Below, in pieces: positions 1,364-6,859 of a DNA stretch of 7,437 nt. Origin of the DNA: a virus (lineage: Duplodnaviria; Heunggongvirae; Uroviricota; Caudoviricetes). The DNA is taken from IMG/VR virus record IMGVR_UViG_2585428013_000002; one strand, given 5' to 3'. The position numbers and the translations under genes were made by a program. Within the stretch, counting starts at the first letter, position 1. Each line of letters starts with the position of its first letter. A model generated the notes under the pieces. It ran no database searches, was not told the DNA's origin, and was given only the letters and a program-made list of their open reading frames with translations.

Positions 1364-2107
1364 ATGACACAGACAGAATCAGCGATTCTGGCGCACGCCC
1401 GGCGATGTGCGCCAGCGGAGTCGTGCGGCTTCGTGGTGAGAACGCCGGAAGGGGAAAGATATTTTCCCTGCGTGAATATCTCCGGTGAGCCGGAGGAGTA
1501 TTTCCGGATGTCGCCGGAGGACTGGCTGCGGGCAGAGACGCAGGGTGAGATTGTGGCGCTGGTCCACAGCCACCCCGGTGGTCTGCCCTGGCTGAGTGAG
1601 GCCGACCGGCGGCTGCAGGTGCAGAGTGATTTGCCGTGGTGGCTGGTCTGCCGGGGTGAGATTCATAAATTCCGCTGTGTGCCGCATCTTACCGGGCGGC
1701 GCTTTGAGCACGGGGTGACGGACTGTTACACGCTGTTCCGGGATGCTTACCATCTGGCGGGGATTGAGATGCCGGATTTTCATCGCGAGGATGACTGGTG
1801 GCGTCACGGTCAGAATCTCTATCTGGATAATCTGGAGGCCACAGGGCTGTATCAGGTGCCGTTGTCAGCGGCGCAGCCGGGCGATGTGCTGCTGTGCTGT
1901 TTTGGTTCATCGGTGCCGAATCATGCCGCCATTTACTGCGGCGACGGCGAGCTGCTGCACCATATTCCTGAACAACTGAGCAAACGAGAGAGGTATACCG
2001 ACAAATGGCAGCGACGCACACACTCCCTCTGGCGTCACCGGGCATGGCACGCATCTGCCTTTACGGGGATTTACAACGATTTGGCCGCCGCATCGACCTT
2101 CGTGTGA
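1364..2107 (+). CDS. K: Tail tip assembly protein K: N-terminal JAB/MPN (JAMM) metallopeptidase-like domain + C-terminal NlpC/P60 cysteine peptidase-like domain (247 aa as called; alternative start at 1509 gives 199 aa)
   Basis: JAMM motif HSHPGGLPWLSEAD (H-x-H-x7-S-x2-D) at 1565-1606; NlpC/P60-like Cys (GVTDCYTLF) and downstream His residues (NHAAIY...LLHH); 3' end overlaps I by 103 nt as in lambda. The start is uncertain: 1364 has no obvious SD, 1509 has GGAGG about 13 nt upstream. Confidence 0.88.
   Translation: MTQTESAILAHARRCAPAESCGFVVRTPEGERYFPCVNISGEPEEYFRMSPEDWLRAETQGEIVALVHSHPGGLPWLSEADRRLQVQSDLPWWLVCRGEIHKFRCVPHLTGRRFEHGVTDCYTLFRDAYHLAGIEMPDFHREDDWWRHGQNLYLDNLEATGLYQVPLSAAQPGDVLLCCFGSSVPNHAAIYCGDGELLHHIPEQLSKRERYTDKWQRRTHSLWRHRAWHASAFTGIYNDLAAASTFV
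1565..1606 (+). other. JAMM/MPN+ zinc-binding motif (HxHx7Sx2D) inside K
   Basis: Codons cac-agc-cac ... agt-gag-gcc-gac read directly in the K frame. Confidence 0.8.
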
Positions 2108-2652
2108 AAACGGGGGCCGAAGCCATCCGGGCGCTGGCCACACAGCTCCCGGCGTTTCGCCAGAAACTGAATGACGGCTGGTATCAGGTGCGCATTGCCG
2201 GGCGTGATGCAGGCGAAAATGAATTATCTGCCCGTCTTAATGAGCCGCTGGCAAATGGTGCCGTGATCCACATCGTGCCGCGTCTGGCGGGAGCTAAAAG
2301 TGGCGGTGTGTTTCAGGTGGTGCTGGGGGCGGCGCTGATTGCGGTGGCATGGTGGAACCCTGTGGGCTGGCTGGGTGCTGCGGCTGTATCGGGCATGTAT
2401 GCGGCAGGGGCCAGTATGATCCTGGGCGGAGTGGCCCAGATGCTGGCACCGAAAGCCAGGACGCCCACGGCAGCCAGTACAGATAACGGCAAACAGAACA
2501 CCTATTTCTCCTCACTGGATAACATGGTTGCCCAGGGCAATGTTCTGCCCGTTCTGTACGGTGAAATGCGCGTGGGGTCACGCGTGGTTTCTCAGGAGAT
2601 CAGCACGGCAGACGAAGGGGACGGTGGTCAGGTTGTGGTGATTGGTCGCTGA
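2005..2652 (+). CDS. I: Tail tip assembly protein I: N-terminal ubiquitin-like (beta-grasp) domain ending in Gly-Gly, then a hydrophobic Gly/Ala-rich segment and a conserved C-terminal region; 215 aa
   Basis: Sequence MAATHTLPLASPGMARICLYGDLQRFGRRIDL... and C-terminus ...EGDGGQVVVIGR match my recollection of lambda gpI; starts inside the 3' end of K in another frame; GAGAGAGG upstream of the ATG; Gly-Gly at codons 100-101 (2302-2307). Confidence 0.9.
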   Translation: MAATHTLPLASPGMARICLYGDLQRFGRRIDLRVKTGAEAIRALATQLPAFRQKLNDGWYQVRIAGRDAGENELSARLNEPLANGAVIHIVPRLAGAKSGGVFQVVLGAALIAVAWWNPVGWLGAAAVSGMYAAGASMILGGVAQMLAPKARTPTAASTDNGKQNTYFSSLDNMVAQGNVLPVLYGEMRVGSRVVSQEISTADEGDGGQVVVIGR

Positions 2653-2670: not shown

Positions 2671-2698
2671 AAACCGCCTGCGGGCGGTTTTGTCGTTT
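2671..2698 (+). terminator. GC-rich hairpin in the I-J intergenic gap (8-bp stem aaaccgcc/ggcggttt, loop tgcg) followed by an interrupted T-tract; possible weak terminator/attenuator or RNA-stability element
   Basis: Perfect inverted repeat 2671-2678 / 2683-2690 read from the sequence; downstream ttttgtcgttt is not a clean U-run. Confidence 0.45.
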
Positions 2699-2712: not shown

Positions 2713-5700
2713 ATGGGTAAAGGCAGCAGTAAGGGGCATACCCCGCGCGAAGCGAAGGACAACCTGAAGTCCACGCAGTTGCTGAGTGTGATCGATGCCA
2801 TCAGCGAAGGGCCGGTTGAAGGTCCGGTGGATGGATTAAAAAGCGTGCTGCTGAACAGTACGCCGGTGCTGGACACTGAGGGGAATACCAACATATCCGG
2901 TGTCACGGTGGTGTTCCGGGCAGGTGAGCAGGAGCAGACTCCGCCGGAGGGGTTTGAATCCTCCGGTTCCGAGACGGTGCTCGGTACAGAAGTGAAATAT
3001 GACACGCCGATCACCCGGACCATCACGTCGGCAAACATCGACCGTCTGCGCTTTACCTTCGGTGTGCAGGCACTGGTGGAAACCACCTCAAAGGGGGACA
3101 GGAATCCGTCGGAAGTCCGCCTGCTGGTTCAGATACAGCGTAACGGTGGCTGGGTGACGGAAAAAGACATCACCATTAAGGGCAAAACCACCTCGCAGTA
3201 TCTGGCATCGGTGGTGGTGGGTAACCTGCCGCCGCGCCCGTTCAATATCCGGATGCGCAGGATGACGCCGGACAGCACCACAGACCAGCTGCAGAACAAA
3301 ACGCTCTGGTCGTCATACACCGAAATCATCGATGTGAAACAGTGCTACCCGAACACGGCACTGGTCGGCGTACAGGTGGACTCGGAGCAGTTCGGCAGCC
3401 AGCAGGTGAGCCGTAATTATCATCTGCGCGGGCGCATTCTGCAGGTGCCGTCGAACTATAACCCGCAGACGCGGCAATACAGCGGTATCTGGGACGGAAC
3501 GTTTAAGCCAGCATACAGCAACAACATGGCCTGGTGTCTGTGGGATATGCTGACCCATCCGCGCTACGGCATGGGGAAACGTCTTGGTGCGGCGGATGTG
3601 GACAAATGGGCGCTGTATGTCATCGGCCAGAATTGCGACCAGTCGGTGCCGGACGGCTTTGGCGGCACGGAGCCGCGCATCACCTGTAATGCGTACCTGA
3701 CCACACAGCGCAAGGCGTGGGATGTGCTCAGTGATTTCTGCTCGGCGATGCGCTGTATGCCGGTATGGAACGGGCAGACGCTGACGTTCGTGCAGGACCG
3801 ACCATCGGATAAGGTGTGGACCTATAACCGCAGTAATGTGGTGATGCCGGATGATGGCGCGCCGTTCCGCTACAGCTTCAGCGCCCTGAAAGACCGCCAT
3901 AATGCCGTTGAGGTGAACTGGACTGACCCGAACAACGGCTGGGAAACGGCAACAGAGCTTGTGGAGGACACGCAGGCCATTGCCCGTTACGGTCGTAACG
4001 TCACGAAGATGGATGCCTTTGGCTGTACCAGCCGGGGGCAGGCACACCGCGCCGGGCTGTGGCTGATTAAAACGGAGCTGCTGGAAACGCAGACCGTGGA
4101 TTTCAGCGTGGGCGCCGAAGGGCTTCGCCATGTACCGGGCGATGTCATTGAAATCTGCGATGATGACTATGCGGGTATCAGCACCGGCGGGCGCGTGCTG
4201 GCGGTGAACAGCCAGACCCGGACGCTGACGCTCGACCGTGAAATCACGCTGCCATCCTCCGGCACCACGCTGATAAGCCTGGTTGACGGGAGTGGCAATC
4301 CGGTCAGCGTGGAGGTTCAGTCCGTCACCGACGGCGTGAAGGTGAAAGTGAGCCGTGTTCCTGACGGCGTTGCTGAATACAGCGTATGGGGGCTGAAGCT
4401 GCCGACGCTGCGCCAGCGCCTGTTCCGCTGCGTGAGTATCCGTGAGAACGACGACGGCACGTATGCCATCACCGCCGTGCAGCATGTACCGGAGAAAGAG
4501 GCCATCGTGGATAACGGGGCGCACTTTGACGGCGACCAGAGCGGCACGGTGAATGGTGTCACGCCGCCAGCAGTGCAGCACCTGACCGCCGAAGTCACCG
4601 CAGACAGCGGGGAATATCAGGTGCTGGCGCGCTGGGACACACCGAAGGTGGTGAAGGGCGTGAGCTTCCTGCTTCGCCTGACCGTGACAGCGGATGACGG
4701 CAGTGAGCGGCTGGTCAGCACAGCCCGGACGACGGAAACCACATACCGCTTCACACAACTGGCGCTGGGGAACTACAGGCTGACAGTCCGGGCAGTAAAT
4801 GCGTGGGGACAGCAGGGCGATCCGGCATCGGTATCGTTCCGGATTGCCGCACCGGCAGCGCCGTCGCGGATTGAGCTGACGCCGGGCTATTTTCAGATAA
4901 CCGCCACGCCGCATCTTGCGGTTTATGATCCGACGGTACAGTTTGAGTTCTGGTTCTCGGAAAAGCGGATTGCGGATATCAGGCAGGTTGAAACCACAGC
5001 ACGCTATCTTGGCACGGCGCTGTACTGGATAGCCGCCAGTATCAATATCAAACCGGGCCATGATTATTATTTTTACGTTCGCAGTGTGAACACCGTTGGC
5101 AAATCGGCATTCGTGGAGGCTGTCGGTCAGCCGAGTGATGACGCATCCGGCTATCTGGATTTTTTCAAAGGAGAGATAGGGAAAACACACCTGGCTCAGG
5201 AGTTGTGGACGCAGATTGATAACGGTCAGCTTGCGCCTGACCTGGCTGAAATCAGGACATCCATTACGGGTGTCAGCAATGAAATCACGCAGACCGTCAA
5301 TAAGAAACTGGAAGACCAGAGTGCAGCGATCCAGCAGATACAGAAGGTTCAGGTTGATACAAATAATAACCTGAACAGCATGTGGGCTGTGAAGCTGCAG
5401 CAGATGCAGGACGGGCGCCTTTATATCGCGGGTATTGGTGCCGGTATTGAGAACACCCCTGACGGCATGCAGAGTCAGGTGCTGCTGGCGGCGGACAGGA
5501 TTGCGATGGTTAATCCTGCGAATGGCAACACAAAGCCGATGTTTGTTGGTCAGGGCGATCAGATATTCATGAACGAAGTGTTCCTGAAATATCTGACGGC
5601 TCCCACCATTACCAGCGGCGGTAATCCTCCGGCATTTTCCCTGACACCGGACGGGCGGCTGACGGCGAAAAATGCCGATATCAGCGGTAACGTGAATGCG

Positions 5701-6192
5701 AACTCCGGGACGCTCAACAACGTCACGATTAACGAGAACTGCCGGGTTCTGGGAAAACTGTCCGCGAACCAGATTGAAGGCGATCTCGTTAAAACAGTGG
5801 GCAAAGCTTTCCCCCGGGACTCCCGTGCACCGGAACGGTGGCCATCAGGGACCATTACCGTCAGGATTTATGACGATCAGCCGTTTGACCGGCAGATTGT
5901 TATTCCGGCGGTGGCATTCAGCGGCGCTAAACATGAGAGAGAGCATACTGATATTTACTCCTCATGCCGTCTGATAGTGCGGAAAAACGGTGCTGAAATT
6001 TATAACCGTACCGCGCTGGATAATACGCTGATTTACAGTGGCGTTATTGATATGCCTGCCGGTCACGGTCACATGACGCTGGAGTTTTCGGTGTCAGCAT
6101 GGCTGGTAAATGACTGGTATCCCACAGCAAGTATCAGCGATTTGCTGGTTGTGGTGATGAAGAAAGCCACCGCAGGCATCAGTATCAGCTGA
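2713..6192 (+). CDS. J: Tip attachment protein J / central tail fibre (host-specificity protein), 1159 aa
   Basis: 1159-aa ORF (lambda J is 1132 aa); N-terminus [34 protein letters not shown]... matches my recollection of lambda J; GGAG SD before the ATG; internal fibronectin-III-like repeats; position after I and before lom. Confidence 0.95.
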
Positions 6193-6259: not shown

Positions 6260-6859
6260 ATGCGTAAATTATGTGCTGTTATTCTGTCCGCAGTAGTCTG
6301 GCTGGTTGCCGCTGGTACGCCAGCAAGCGCAGCAGAGCATCAGTCCACACTAAGCGCCGGGTATCTTCAGACCCATACTGATATGCCAGGCAGCGATGAT
6401 CTGAACGGGATTAACGTGAAATACCGTTATGAGTTTACGGACACGCTGGGGCTGGTGACGTCATTCAGTTATGCCAATGCCAAAGATGAGCAAAAAACGC
6501 ATTACAGCGATACCCGCTGGCATGAAGATTCCGTGCGTAACCGCTGGTTCAGCGTGATGGCGGGGCCGTCTGTGCGCGTGAATGAATGGTTCAGCGCGTA
6601 TGCGATGGCGGGTATGGCTTACAGCCGTGTGTCGACCTTCTCCGGGGATTATCTCCGCGTAACTGACAACAAGGGGAAAACGCACGATGTGCTGACCGGA
6701 AGTGATGACGGTCGCCACAGCAACACGTCTCTGGCGTGGGGGGCTGGCGTGCAGTTTAACCCGACCGAATCCGTGGCCATTGACCTTGCTTATGAAGGTT
6801 CCGGCAGTGGTGACTGGCGCACTGACGGTTTCATCGTGGGTGTCGGTTATAAATTCTGA
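6260..6859 (+). CDS. lom: Lom outer membrane protein (Ail/Lom/PagC/Rck/OmpX family 8-stranded beta-barrel), 199 aa with N-terminal signal peptide
   Basis: Signal-peptide-like N-terminus MRKLCAVILSAVVWLVAAGTPASA/AEH; alternating beta-strand pattern; C-terminal ...GVGYKF with terminal Phe typical of OMP beta-barrels; matches my recollection of lambda Lom; GAGAGG SD about 6 nt before the ATG; located between J and stf as in lambda. Confidence 0.93.
   Translation: MRKLCAVILSAVVWLVAAGTPASAAEHQSTLSAGYLQTHTDMPGSDDLNGINVKYRYEFTDTLGLVTSFSYANAKDEQKTHYSDTRWHEDSVRNRWFSVMAGPSVRVNEWFSAYAMAGMAYSRVSTFSGDYLRVTDNKGKTHDVLTGSDDGRHSNTSLAWGAGVQFNPTESVAIDLAYEGSGSGDWRTDGFIVGVGYKF

What the first reader, a model, noticed from the sequence alone, without database searches (positions are those of the whole stretch)
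1364..2652. K-I pair looks like a ubiquitin-like / JAB peptidase processing module embedded in tail-tip assembly
K carries an intact JAMM metalloprotease motif (HSHPGGLPWLSEAD) plus an NlpC/P60-like Cys/His domain. The overlapping downstream gene I encodes an N-terminal ubiquitin-like segment ending exactly in Gly-Gly (…PRLAGAKSGG, codons 100-101), followed by a hydrophobic Gly/Ala-rich stretch. Comparative-genomic work on prokaryotic ubiquitin-like systems (Iyer, Burroughs and Aravind) proposed that gpK-type proteins process gpI-type ubiquitin-like proteins, but as far as I know the biochemistry is barely characterised. This is the most system-like element in the window, though it is a known family association rather than something new.
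Basis: partly seen in the sequence, partly recalled or inferred. Interest (0 to 1): 0.6.

Follow-up and report, generated by a model that had tools for sequence, protein, structure and literature searches.

The report
Lambda tail-tip K/I protease–ubiquitin-like pair
These are the ordinary K and I tail-tip assembly genes of a lambda-like E. coli prophage: K is a two-domain peptidase that clips a ubiquitin-like handle off I during tail assembly, an idea proposed in 2006 and recently reported as shown experimentally, so it is real but already known.

Summary
K (1364-2107) is Prok-JAB plus NlpC/P60, with an exact JAMM motif (E19, H68-x-H70-x7-S78-x2-D81) and a Cys121/His187/His199 triad. All are invariant in 60 diverse homologues. 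I (2005-2652) has a confident beta-grasp domain (residues 13-92) whose best fold matches are SAMP1, MoaD, Urm1 and ubiquitin. Two hydrophobic helices and the C-terminal plug domain follow.

The window is the H-M-L-K-I-J-lom module of a lambdoid prophage, 98% identical to phage mEp460 and present in 5005 of 5426 complete E. coli genomes.

Cryo-EM and mass spectrometry show gpK absent from virions and only the C-terminal part of gpI resolved. An F-pyocin preprint shows the N-terminus of the gpI homologue is lost on maturation. A 2025 plenary by A. [quoted passage not shown]

One correction: the Gly-Gly at 100-101 is not the conserved element (G100 in 16 of 61 homologues). Profile alignments put the MoaD-type terminus at G96-A97 (P92 61/61, G96 60/61). 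The real start of I may be Met14 (nt 2044).

Still open are the exact cut site and the role of the NlpC/P60 domain. Verdict: already known, low interest.

The parts
1364..2107 (+). Gene K, tail tip assembly protein K (247 aa, long form)
   Evidence: ORF. 96.8% identical at protein level to K of lambda-type phages and annotated 'tail tip assembly protein K' or 'C40 family peptidase' in phage records. PHROG 30, minor tail protein. It starts 5 nt after the stop of L.
1370..1678 (+). JAB/MPN+ metalloprotease domain of K (residues 3-105)
   Evidence: Pfam PF14464 Prok-JAB, E 1.2e-14. Foldseek best matches are PfJAMM1 5ld9/5lda, Rpn11 and CSN5. PDB sequence hit 2kks.
1418..1420 (+). Glu19, the upstream catalytic Glu of the JAMM site
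   Evidence: Invariant in 22 close homologues and 60 diverse ones.
1565..1606 (+). JAMM motif HSHPGGLPWLSEAD (H68, H70, S78, D81)
   Evidence: Exact H-x-H-x7-S-x2-D. H, H, S and D are invariant.
1694..2035 (+). NlpC/P60 (C40) papain-like peptidase domain of K (residues 111-224). Catalytic Cys121 is at nt 1724-1726, His187 at 1922-1924 and His199 at 1958-1960.
   Evidence: Pfam PF00877, E 5.8e-13. Foldseek matches MepS 8xup and C. difficile autolysins. C121, H187 and H199 are invariant.
2005..2107 (+). K/I overlap (103 nt from the first ATG of I; 64 nt if I starts at Met14)
   Evidence: No -1 slippery heptamer lies in the overlap. In Neisseria relatives the overlap is 4 nt; in Pasteurellaceae about 58 nt.
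2005..2652 (+). Gene I, tail tip assembly protein I (215 aa from ATG 2005; 202 aa from ATG 2044)
   Evidence: ORF. phmmer E 5.8e-108 to lambda gpI, PDB 8iyk chain I. PHROG 32, tail assembly protein.
2044..2295 (+). Ubiquitin-like beta-grasp domain of I with its C-terminal tail (Met14 to Ala97)
   Evidence: Pfam PF06805 covers residues 14-97. AlphaFold pLDDT is above 90 for residues 13-92, with the last strand at 87-92. Foldseek matches SAMP1 2l52, MoaD 1fm0 (TM 0.75), Urm1 and ubiquitin.
2278..2307 (+). Predicted processing region P92-R-L-A-G96-A97-K-S-G100-G101
   Evidence: Conservation: P92 61/61, G96 60/61, A/S97 59/61, G100 16/61, G101 52/61. G96 aligns with the penultimate Gly of MoaD/ThiS chains. 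The lambda gpI model in 8IYK starts at residue 101.
2302..2445 (+). Hydrophobic helical hairpin H1/H2 (residues 100-147)
   Evidence: Predicted helices at 100-117, 119-123 and 125-147. 85% hydrophobic or small residues. Corresponds to the H1/H2 predicted transmembrane helices of lambda gpI.
2446..2649 (+). C-terminal plug/insertion domain of I (residues 148-215)
   Evidence: Nearly identical to lambda gpI residues 134-223, which are resolved as a trimeric plug holding the C-terminus of gpH. pLDDT is low as a monomer, as expected for a part that folds by strand augmentation onto gpJ.

Best explanation
The region holds genes K and I of the tail-tip module (H-M-L-K-I-J-lom) of a lambda-like E. 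coli prophage.

I is made as a precursor with four parts: an N-terminal ubiquitin-like beta-grasp domain, a short Gly/Ala/Lys tail, two hydrophobic helices, and a C-terminal domain that docks onto gpJ and gpL.

K is a non-virion assembly enzyme with a zinc JAB/MPN+ isopeptidase domain fused to an NlpC/P60 cysteine peptidase domain.

Once I is seated in the J/L tail-tip complex, K's JAB domain binds the ubiquitin-like domain in the way a deubiquitinase binds ubiquitin. It cuts in the tail after the last beta strand, most likely next to G96-A97 and possibly at G100-G101. The ubiquitin-like domain is discarded. The C-terminal fragment stays as the trimeric plug that holds the end of the tape-measure protein and later inserts into the host outer membrane. 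The cut acts as an assembly checkpoint.

Shown here: domains, folds, motif integrity, conservation and synteny. Taken from the literature: virion composition and the cleavage itself. Inferred: which K domain cuts, the exact scissile bond, and a chaperone or solubility role for the ubiquitin-like domain.
For: - Domain and motif integrity.
- Catalytic residues of both K domains are invariant in 22 close and 60 diverse homologues.
- The K model best matches PfJAMM1, including its SAMP2 complex, and Rpn11/CSN5. The I model best matches SAMP1, MoaD, Urm1 and ubiquitin.
- P92, G96, A/S97 and G101 are conserved in 61 diverse I homologues. G96-A97 aligns with the MoaD/ThiS terminal Gly-Gly.
- K (JAB+NlpC) lies just upstream of a Ubl-bearing I in all 71 genome loci with the K region fully present and in 13 of 13 phage loci checked from many families. 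Of these, 10 K proteins were confirmed by Pfam and 3 by inspection of the translated sequence.
- The phage database holds K in 1766 records and I in 1732, with near-identical per-genus counts.
- PHROG families exist that fuse JAB or K to I.
- Literature: the hypothesis; gpK not in virions and only the C-terminal part of gpI modelled; N-terminus of F-pyocin PA0640 lost on maturation, and deleting the gpK homologue gives tip-less tubes; the Davidson group reported that gpK cleaves the Ubl of gpI after gpI binds other tip proteins.
Against: - The direct biochemical evidence is available to me only as a conference summary, with no data or cut site. No full paper was found.
- In F-pyocin the N-terminus of the I homologue was still detected in mutants lacking tape measure, distal tail protein or tube, although the K homologue was present. 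Recombinant I lost its N-terminus to E. coli proteases. Timing and protease identity are therefore not settled in that system. I did not verify that PA0639 has a JAB domain.
- Nothing here tells which of K's two peptidase domains makes the cut.
- The lambda mass spectrometry found only one gpI peptide (9.9% coverage), with its position not given.
Confidence: 0.85

Rival explanations
1. The ubiquitin-like domain of I is removed, but not by the JAB site. The NlpC/P60 papain-like domain of K, or host proteases, make the cut. JAB serves only as a Ubl-binding module or has another substrate.
For: - The NlpC/P60 triad C121/H187/H199 is as invariant as the JAMM site, so that domain is also under selection as an enzyme.
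- Iyer et al. raised this possibility.
- Recombinant PA0640 loses its N-terminus in E. coli without any K homologue, and the N-terminus persists in stalled F-pyocin tips that contain the K homologue.
Against: - The JAMM motif is canonical and invariant.
- The nearest structural relatives of enzyme and substrate are a cognate JAMM/SAMP pair.
- The conference summary attributes the cleavage to gpK and highlights its deubiquitinating domain.
- NlpC/P60 enzymes characteristically cut gamma-D-Glu-containing peptides (background knowledge).
Confidence: 0.08
2. The peptidase domains of K mainly serve something other than I processing. One option is peptidoglycan hydrolysis during infection. Another is removal of host Bil-type ubiquitin-like conjugates from the central tail fibre as counter-defence. 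In either case the Ubl of I would be only a chaperone or docking handle.
For: - Database names such as 'cell wall-associated NlpC family hydrolase'.
- The lambda peptidoglycan-cutting enzyme is unidentified.
Against: - gpK is not detected in virions, so it cannot act at infection.
- SECphi27, the phage on which Bil conjugation to the tail fibre was shown, encodes a K with an intact JAMM-like motif and a Ubl-bearing I. The domain therefore does not obviously protect.
- The near 1:1 linkage of JAB-K with Ubl-I across 1700+ phage records points to an intrinsic substrate.
Confidence: 0.05
3. There is no cleavage. The Ubl stays attached in the virion and is simply disordered in the tail lumen or below the tip.
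For: - Cryo-EM papers describe the N-terminal domain only as 'unresolved'.
Against: - The domain is a plain beta-grasp with no catalytic motif.
- F-pyocin mass spectrometry shows the N-terminal region missing from mature particles.
- The Davidson report.
- An invariant protease encoded next door.
Confidence: 0.03

Closest known systems
Bacteriophage lambda gpK / gpI (tail tip assembly proteins K and I)
   Same: - Same gene order, H-M-L-K-I-J-lom.
- I is 79% identical to lambda gpI over its full length (E 5.8e-108).
- K is about 97% identical to K of lambda-type phages.
- Same 103-nt overlap and same PRxAGAKSGG tail.
   Different: - I is 8 residues shorter in the H1-H2 hydrophobic region (215 against 223 aa).
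- The window is closest to phage mEp460 (98.4% DNA identity) rather than to lambda itself.
Phage TAPK-TAPI module of Iyer, Burroughs and Aravind 2006 (JAB+NlpC/P60 next to a Ubl-bearing tail assembly protein)
   Same: This is exactly the architecture and neighbourhood described there, including the conserved Gly at the end of the beta-grasp and the Gly-rich linker.
   Different: Nothing material.
Archaeal JAMM/SAMP and bacterial Mec+/CysO or QbsD/QbsE pairs (JAMM proteases that trim or release MoaD/ThiS-type Ubls)
   Same: - Best structural matches: PfJAMM1 (with SAMP2) for K and SAMP1/MoaD for I.
- Cleavage is expected after the small-residue tail that follows the last strand.
   Different: - No E1, E2 or sulfur-transfer partner in the window. 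The Ubl is an internal N-terminal pro-domain of a structural protein, not a modifier.
- The tail is G-A, not G-G.
- The protease is fused to an NlpC/P60 domain.
F-type pyocin PA0639 / PA0640 (tailocin homologues of gpK / gpI)
   Same: - PA0640-like chains match I over both the Ubl and the C-terminal parts (25vf_9, E 1e-20).
- The N-terminus is lost on maturation, and deleting PA0639 gives tip-less tubes.
   Different: About 30-40% identity. The protease was not identified in that work, and I did not check the domain content of PA0639.
Phage T5 pb3 plug domain
   Same: It occupies the same place in the tail-tip lumen and plays the same role as the C-terminal fragment of gpI.
   Different: It is part of one large hub protein, with no separate Ubl pro-domain and no K-type protease.

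Membership tests
JAB/MPN+ (JAMM) metalloproteases | MPN fold / family profile match | tested here: met
   Pfam Prok-JAB, E 1.2e-14, above the gathering score. Foldseek matches PfJAMM1, Rpn11, CSN5 and AMSH with E down to 6e-5.
JAB/MPN+ (JAMM) metalloproteases | Complete JAMM motif E...H-x-H-x7-S-x2-D | tested here: met
   E19, H68, H70, S78 and D81 are present and invariant in 60 diverse homologues.
JAB/MPN+ (JAMM) metalloproteases | Zinc-dependent (iso)peptidase activity on a Ubl tail | not testable with these tools
   Known only from a literature report: gpK cleaves the Ubl of gpI.
NlpC/P60 (MEROPS C40) papain-like peptidases | Family profile and fold | tested here: met
   Pfam PF00877, E 5.8e-13. 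Foldseek matches MepS and C. difficile autolysins.
NlpC/P60 (MEROPS C40) papain-like peptidases | Cys-His-(His/polar) catalytic triad | tested here: met
   C121, H187 and H199 are invariant.
NlpC/P60 (MEROPS C40) papain-like peptidases | Cell-wall peptide hydrolase activity | not testable with these tools
   The substrate of this domain in K is unknown. gpK is absent from virions.
ThiS/MoaD/SAMP/Urm1-type ubiquitin-like beta-grasp domains | Beta-grasp fold | tested here: met
   pLDDT above 90 for residues 13-92. Foldseek matches SAMP1, MoaD (target TM 0.75, rmsd 2.4-2.8), Urm1 and ubiquitin.
ThiS/MoaD/SAMP/Urm1-type ubiquitin-like beta-grasp domains | [quoted passage not shown] | tested here: met
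   G96 is present in 60 of 61 homologues and aligns with the penultimate Gly of MoaD/ThiS. The next residue is Ala/Ser, not Gly.
Ubiquitin-like conjugation or sulfur-carrier systems (Ubl + E1, with or without E2) | Free C-terminal Gly-Gly plus a neighbouring E1-like adenylating enzyme | tested here: not met
   The Ubl is internal and followed by 118 further residues. The window's other genes are H, M, L, J and lom, and none of the phage loci inspected has an E1 or E2. It therefore works as a Ubl/DUB pair but is not a conjugation system.
Lambda tail assembly protein I family (Pfam PF06805) / lambda gpI orthologue | Profile match, C-terminal plug domain and position between K and J | tested here: met
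   PF06805, E 3.5e-24. Full-length match to 8iyk chain I. Synteny.

The most novel reading that the evidence does not exclude
K's NlpC/P60 domain has a catalytic triad as invariant as the JAMM site, yet K is not in virions. It may therefore have a second, still undiscovered proteolytic job in tail assembly. One candidate is the unidentified protease that converts the tape-measure protein gpH to gpH*. Alternatively, the JAB domain may double as a counter-defence deubiquitinase against Bil-type Ubl conjugation of the central tail fibre.
Probability: 0.12. Interest if true: 0.6.

Novelty: already known. Interest (0 to 1): 0.22.

Why it matters
The K/I pair is a minimal ubiquitin-like domain plus deubiquitinase-type protease working with no conjugation machinery. 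A virus uses it as a proteolytic checkpoint in building its tail tip. It bears on the prokaryotic origins of ubiquitin/JAMM partnerships and on siphophage and tailocin assembly.

This window adds no new biology. The module sits in over 90% of complete E. coli genomes, the hypothesis dates from 2006, and experimental confirmation has been reported. Two details could still be settled at the bench: the exact scissile bond (G96-A97 against G100-G101) and the substrate of the NlpC/P60 domain.

Tried and rejected
1. **Natural variants.** I looked for loci where K lacks JAB or I lacks the Ubl, to test co-variation. None turned up in 71 genome loci with the K region fully present or in 13 phage loci.
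   - Salmonella phage S137 appeared to have a truncated Ubl. This was a mis-annotated start, because the reading frame upstream encodes the missing strands.
   - The 199-aa 'NlpC-only' K clusters have the length of the old truncated lambda annotation (Goulet 2020 analysed gpK as 199 aa). I infer, without checking those sequences, that they are start-site artefacts rather than real JAB-less proteins.
2. **Locus searches that failed or were uninformative.** An NlpC-domain anchor in viral contigs returned only near-identical E. coli prophages.
3. **Programmed -1 frameshift giving a K-I fusion.** No slippery heptamer lies in the overlap. The fused proteins in the database are singletons of the size expected from one-base errors.
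4. **Internal start of K at Met49** (nt 1508, preceded by GGAGGAG). Rejected as the main start because Met49 is not conserved, and the 48 residues upstream carry the invariant E19 and match the JAB profile from residue 3.
5. **Wang et al. 2024 (Structure).** I tried to read it to see the first modelled residue of gpI in 8IYK. The paper is not held.
6. **Lambda virion mass spectrometry supplement.** It gives only one gpI peptide and no position.

Full report
**What is in the window.** The 7.4-kb window carries, on the + strand:
- the 3' end of the tape-measure gene H (13-321)
- M (321-650)
- L (660-1358)
- K (1364-2107)
- I (2005-2652)
- J (2713-6192)
- lom (6260-6859)

Region 1364-2652 is 98.4% identical to phage mEp460 and matches 268 phage records by megablast. 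The whole window matches 5005 of 5426 complete E. coli genomes, with a median of two places per genome. It is a standard lambdoid prophage tail-tip module.

**Checking the observation.** K is 247 aa and I is 215 aa. They overlap by 103 nt.
- HSHPGGLPWLSEAD is K residues 68-81 and fits the canonical JAMM pattern H-x-H-x7-S-x2-D, with Glu19 upstream.
- Pfam gives Prok-JAB (residues 3-105, E 1.2e-14) and NLPC_P60 (residues 111-224, E 5.8e-13) for K, and Lambda_tail_I (residues 14-97, E 3.5e-24) for I.
- PRLAGAKSGG ends at G100-G101 (nt 2302-2307). Residues 102-147 are 85% hydrophobic or small.

**Structure.**
- The AlphaFold model of K has mean pLDDT 80.6. Its best solved matches are Pyrococcus JAMM1, alone and bound to the ubiquitin-like SAMP2, then Rpn11, CSN5 and AMSH. 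The second half matches MepS and clostridial NlpC/P60 autolysins.
- The model of I has pLDDT above 90 for residues 13-92. This part is a beta-grasp with its last strand at 87-92. Helices follow at 100-117 and 125-147, and the C-terminal part is of low confidence.
- The best fold matches for I are SAMP1, MoaD (target-normalised TM 0.75), Urm1, ubiquitin and ThiS.

Enzyme and presumed substrate thus resemble a cognate JAMM/SAMP pair.

**Conservation.** E19, H68, H70, S78, D81, C121, H187 and H199 of K are invariant in 22 close homologues and in 60 non-identical K proteins from Enterobacteriaceae, Pasteurellaceae, Neisseria, Psychrobacter and Burkholderiales. Both active sites are therefore under purifying selection.

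| Position in I | Conserved in 61 diverse homologues |
|---|---|
| P92 | 61 |
| G96 | 60 |
| position 97 | Ala 50, Ser 9, Gly 2 |
| G100 | 16 |
| G101 | 52 |

A Gly-Gly as such is not beyond chance in this protein: 3 observed against 3.1 expected.

A profile of the Ubl region aligns with solved MoaD/ThiS chains so that G96 meets their penultimate residue (3rpf, position 73 of 74; 4n6e, position 89 of 90). hhalign against E. coli MoaD, whose sequence I recalled from memory, gives the same register, with PRLAG aligned to PPVTG. These alignments are weak (E 0.4-0.7; hhalign probability 25%) but agree with one another and with the model, in which the last strand ends at P92.

The homologue of the ubiquitin C-terminal Gly-Gly is therefore G96-A97. 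G100-G101 lies four residues further on, at the start of helix H1. Which bond is actually cut cannot be decided here. The statement that lambda gpI is modelled from residue 101 in 8IYK fits either site.

**Linkage of K and I.**
- In all 71 genome loci with the K region fully present, a K with both JAB and NlpC/P60 lies immediately upstream of an I that has both the Ubl and the C-terminal domain.
- The same holds in 13 phage loci I inspected: Drexlerviridae, Dhillonvirus, Hendrixvirinae, phi80-like, and Pseudomonas, Burkholderia, Moraxella, Aeromonas and Klebsiella phages. Pfam confirmed both domains in 10 of 10 K proteins scanned; the other three were checked by reading the translated sequence.
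- tblastn finds K in 1766 phage records and I in 1732, with almost the same per-genus counts.
- PHROGs contains families that fuse K, or just its JAB part, to I (phrog_28576 and phrog_35166).
- I found no natural case with one partner lacking its domain. The one apparent exception, Salmonella phage S137, is a mis-annotated start.

**What the literature says.**
- Iyer, Burroughs and Aravind (2006) described this very module. They proposed that the JAB domain of TAPK releases the Ub-like domain of TAPI by cutting at its C-terminal Gly, with the NlpC/P60 domain possibly also involved.
- Cryo-EM of lambda shows gpI as a trimeric plug in the tip lumen that grips the C-terminus of gpH. Only residues 134/135-223 are modelled, or 101 onward in 8IYK. 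gpK was not detected in virions by mass spectrometry.
- On receptor binding the hydrophobic helices H1/H2 are thought to insert into the outer membrane.
[quoted passage not shown] Deleting the gpK homologue gives tip-less tubes. The protease was not identified.
[quoted passage not shown] It also says this happens only after gpI has bound other tail-tip proteins.
- I found no full paper.

**Mechanism.** I is made with a ubiquitin-like pro-domain. After I docks on the J/L complex, K's JAB domain recognises that domain and cuts in the short tail after the last strand, probably next to G96-A97. The pro-domain leaves. The C-terminal fragment remains as the plug that recruits and holds the tape measure.

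A role for the pro-domain in keeping the two hydrophobic helices soluble until they are buried is my inference. So is the assignment of the cut to JAB rather than to NlpC/P60.

The F-pyocin finding that the N-terminus persists in mutants that still have the K homologue shows the timing is gated. That fits the checkpoint idea, but it also leaves room for another protease in that system.

**What remains open.** The function of the invariant NlpC/P60 site in a protein that never reaches the virion is unexplained. The Bil preprint's suggestion that phage DUB domains counter Bil is not favoured. SECphi27, the phage on which Bil conjugation was demonstrated, has a K with an intact JAMM-like motif and a Ubl-bearing I.

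**Verdict.** The feature is a textbook-phage gene pair whose function was predicted in 2006 and has since been reported as demonstrated. Novelty: already known. Interest: low.

Noticed in passing
window 2005-2046: The start of I is ambiguous. Pfam, 48 of 61 diverse homologues and many RefSeq annotations (200-202 aa) start at the equivalent of Met14 (ATG 2044). The first 13 residues have low pLDDT, and Pasteurellaceae and Neisseria relatives have no upstream start. With that start the K/I overlap is 64 nt and the Gly-Gly would be residues 87-88.
   Followed up: partly
window 1484-1510: A strong Shine-Dalgarno-like GGAGGAG sits 9-15 nt before the internal ATG 1508 (Met49 of K). A start there would give a 199-aa K, the same length as the old lambda annotation, and would lose part of the JAB domain including E19. 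Met49 is not conserved (Ile or Leu in relatives), so this is probably not a real second start. The thousands of 199-aa 'NlpC-only' database entries may derive from this, but I did not check their sequences.
   Followed up: partly
window 2671-2698: A G+C-rich hairpin (AAACCGCC-TGCG-GGCGGTTT) followed by TGTCGTTT lies between I and J. The 50-nt stretch around it (2656-2705) folds with -17.6 kcal/mol. The simple terminator scan did not flag it. Klebsiella phage Sushi has an annotated terminator in the same I-J gap (L161 3102-3124). It may attenuate J expression.
   Followed up: partly
L010-L023 (genome-contig loci): Identical lambda-type I/K sequences appear in assemblies labelled Neobacillus, Pseudomonas, Shewanella, Bradyrhizobium, Paenibacillus, Chromatium and others, several on contigs of about 48.4 kb. 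This looks like lambda DNA contamination or spike-in in those assemblies.
   Followed up: no
P0156, P0212, P0017, P0135; phrog_28576, phrog_35166: Database proteins and PHROG families in which K (or only its JAB part) is fused in frame to I. The 422-428 aa ones are the size expected from a one-base frameshift in the overlap and are singletons. No slippery heptamer lies in the overlap.
   Followed up: partly
L174 2135-2692 (Salmonella phage S137): The annotated I gene (148 aa, TTG start) is truncated. The open frame upstream encodes the missing N-terminal strands of the Ubl, so the start is mis-called. Its tail reads PVVEGA followed directly by the hydrophobic helix, with no Gly-Gly.
   Followed up: yes
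P0305: A 2783-aa highly repetitive protein matched I residues 10-50 in 23 stretches (E 4.5e-33). It looks like a low-complexity or repeat artefact rather than a true relative.
   Followed up: no
window 2302-2445 compared with lambda gpI 100-155: The hydrophobic H1-H2 region of this I is 8 residues shorter than in lambda (three small gaps) and is the most divergent part of an otherwise near-identical protein.
   Followed up: no
L175 (phage SECphi27) 1372-2782: SECphi27, the phage whose central tail fibre is tagged by the Bil defence system, encodes a K with an intact JAMM-like motif (HSHCGDGASTIPSAHD) and a Ubl-bearing I (…IVPVPTGSKSGGLF…).
   Followed up: partly
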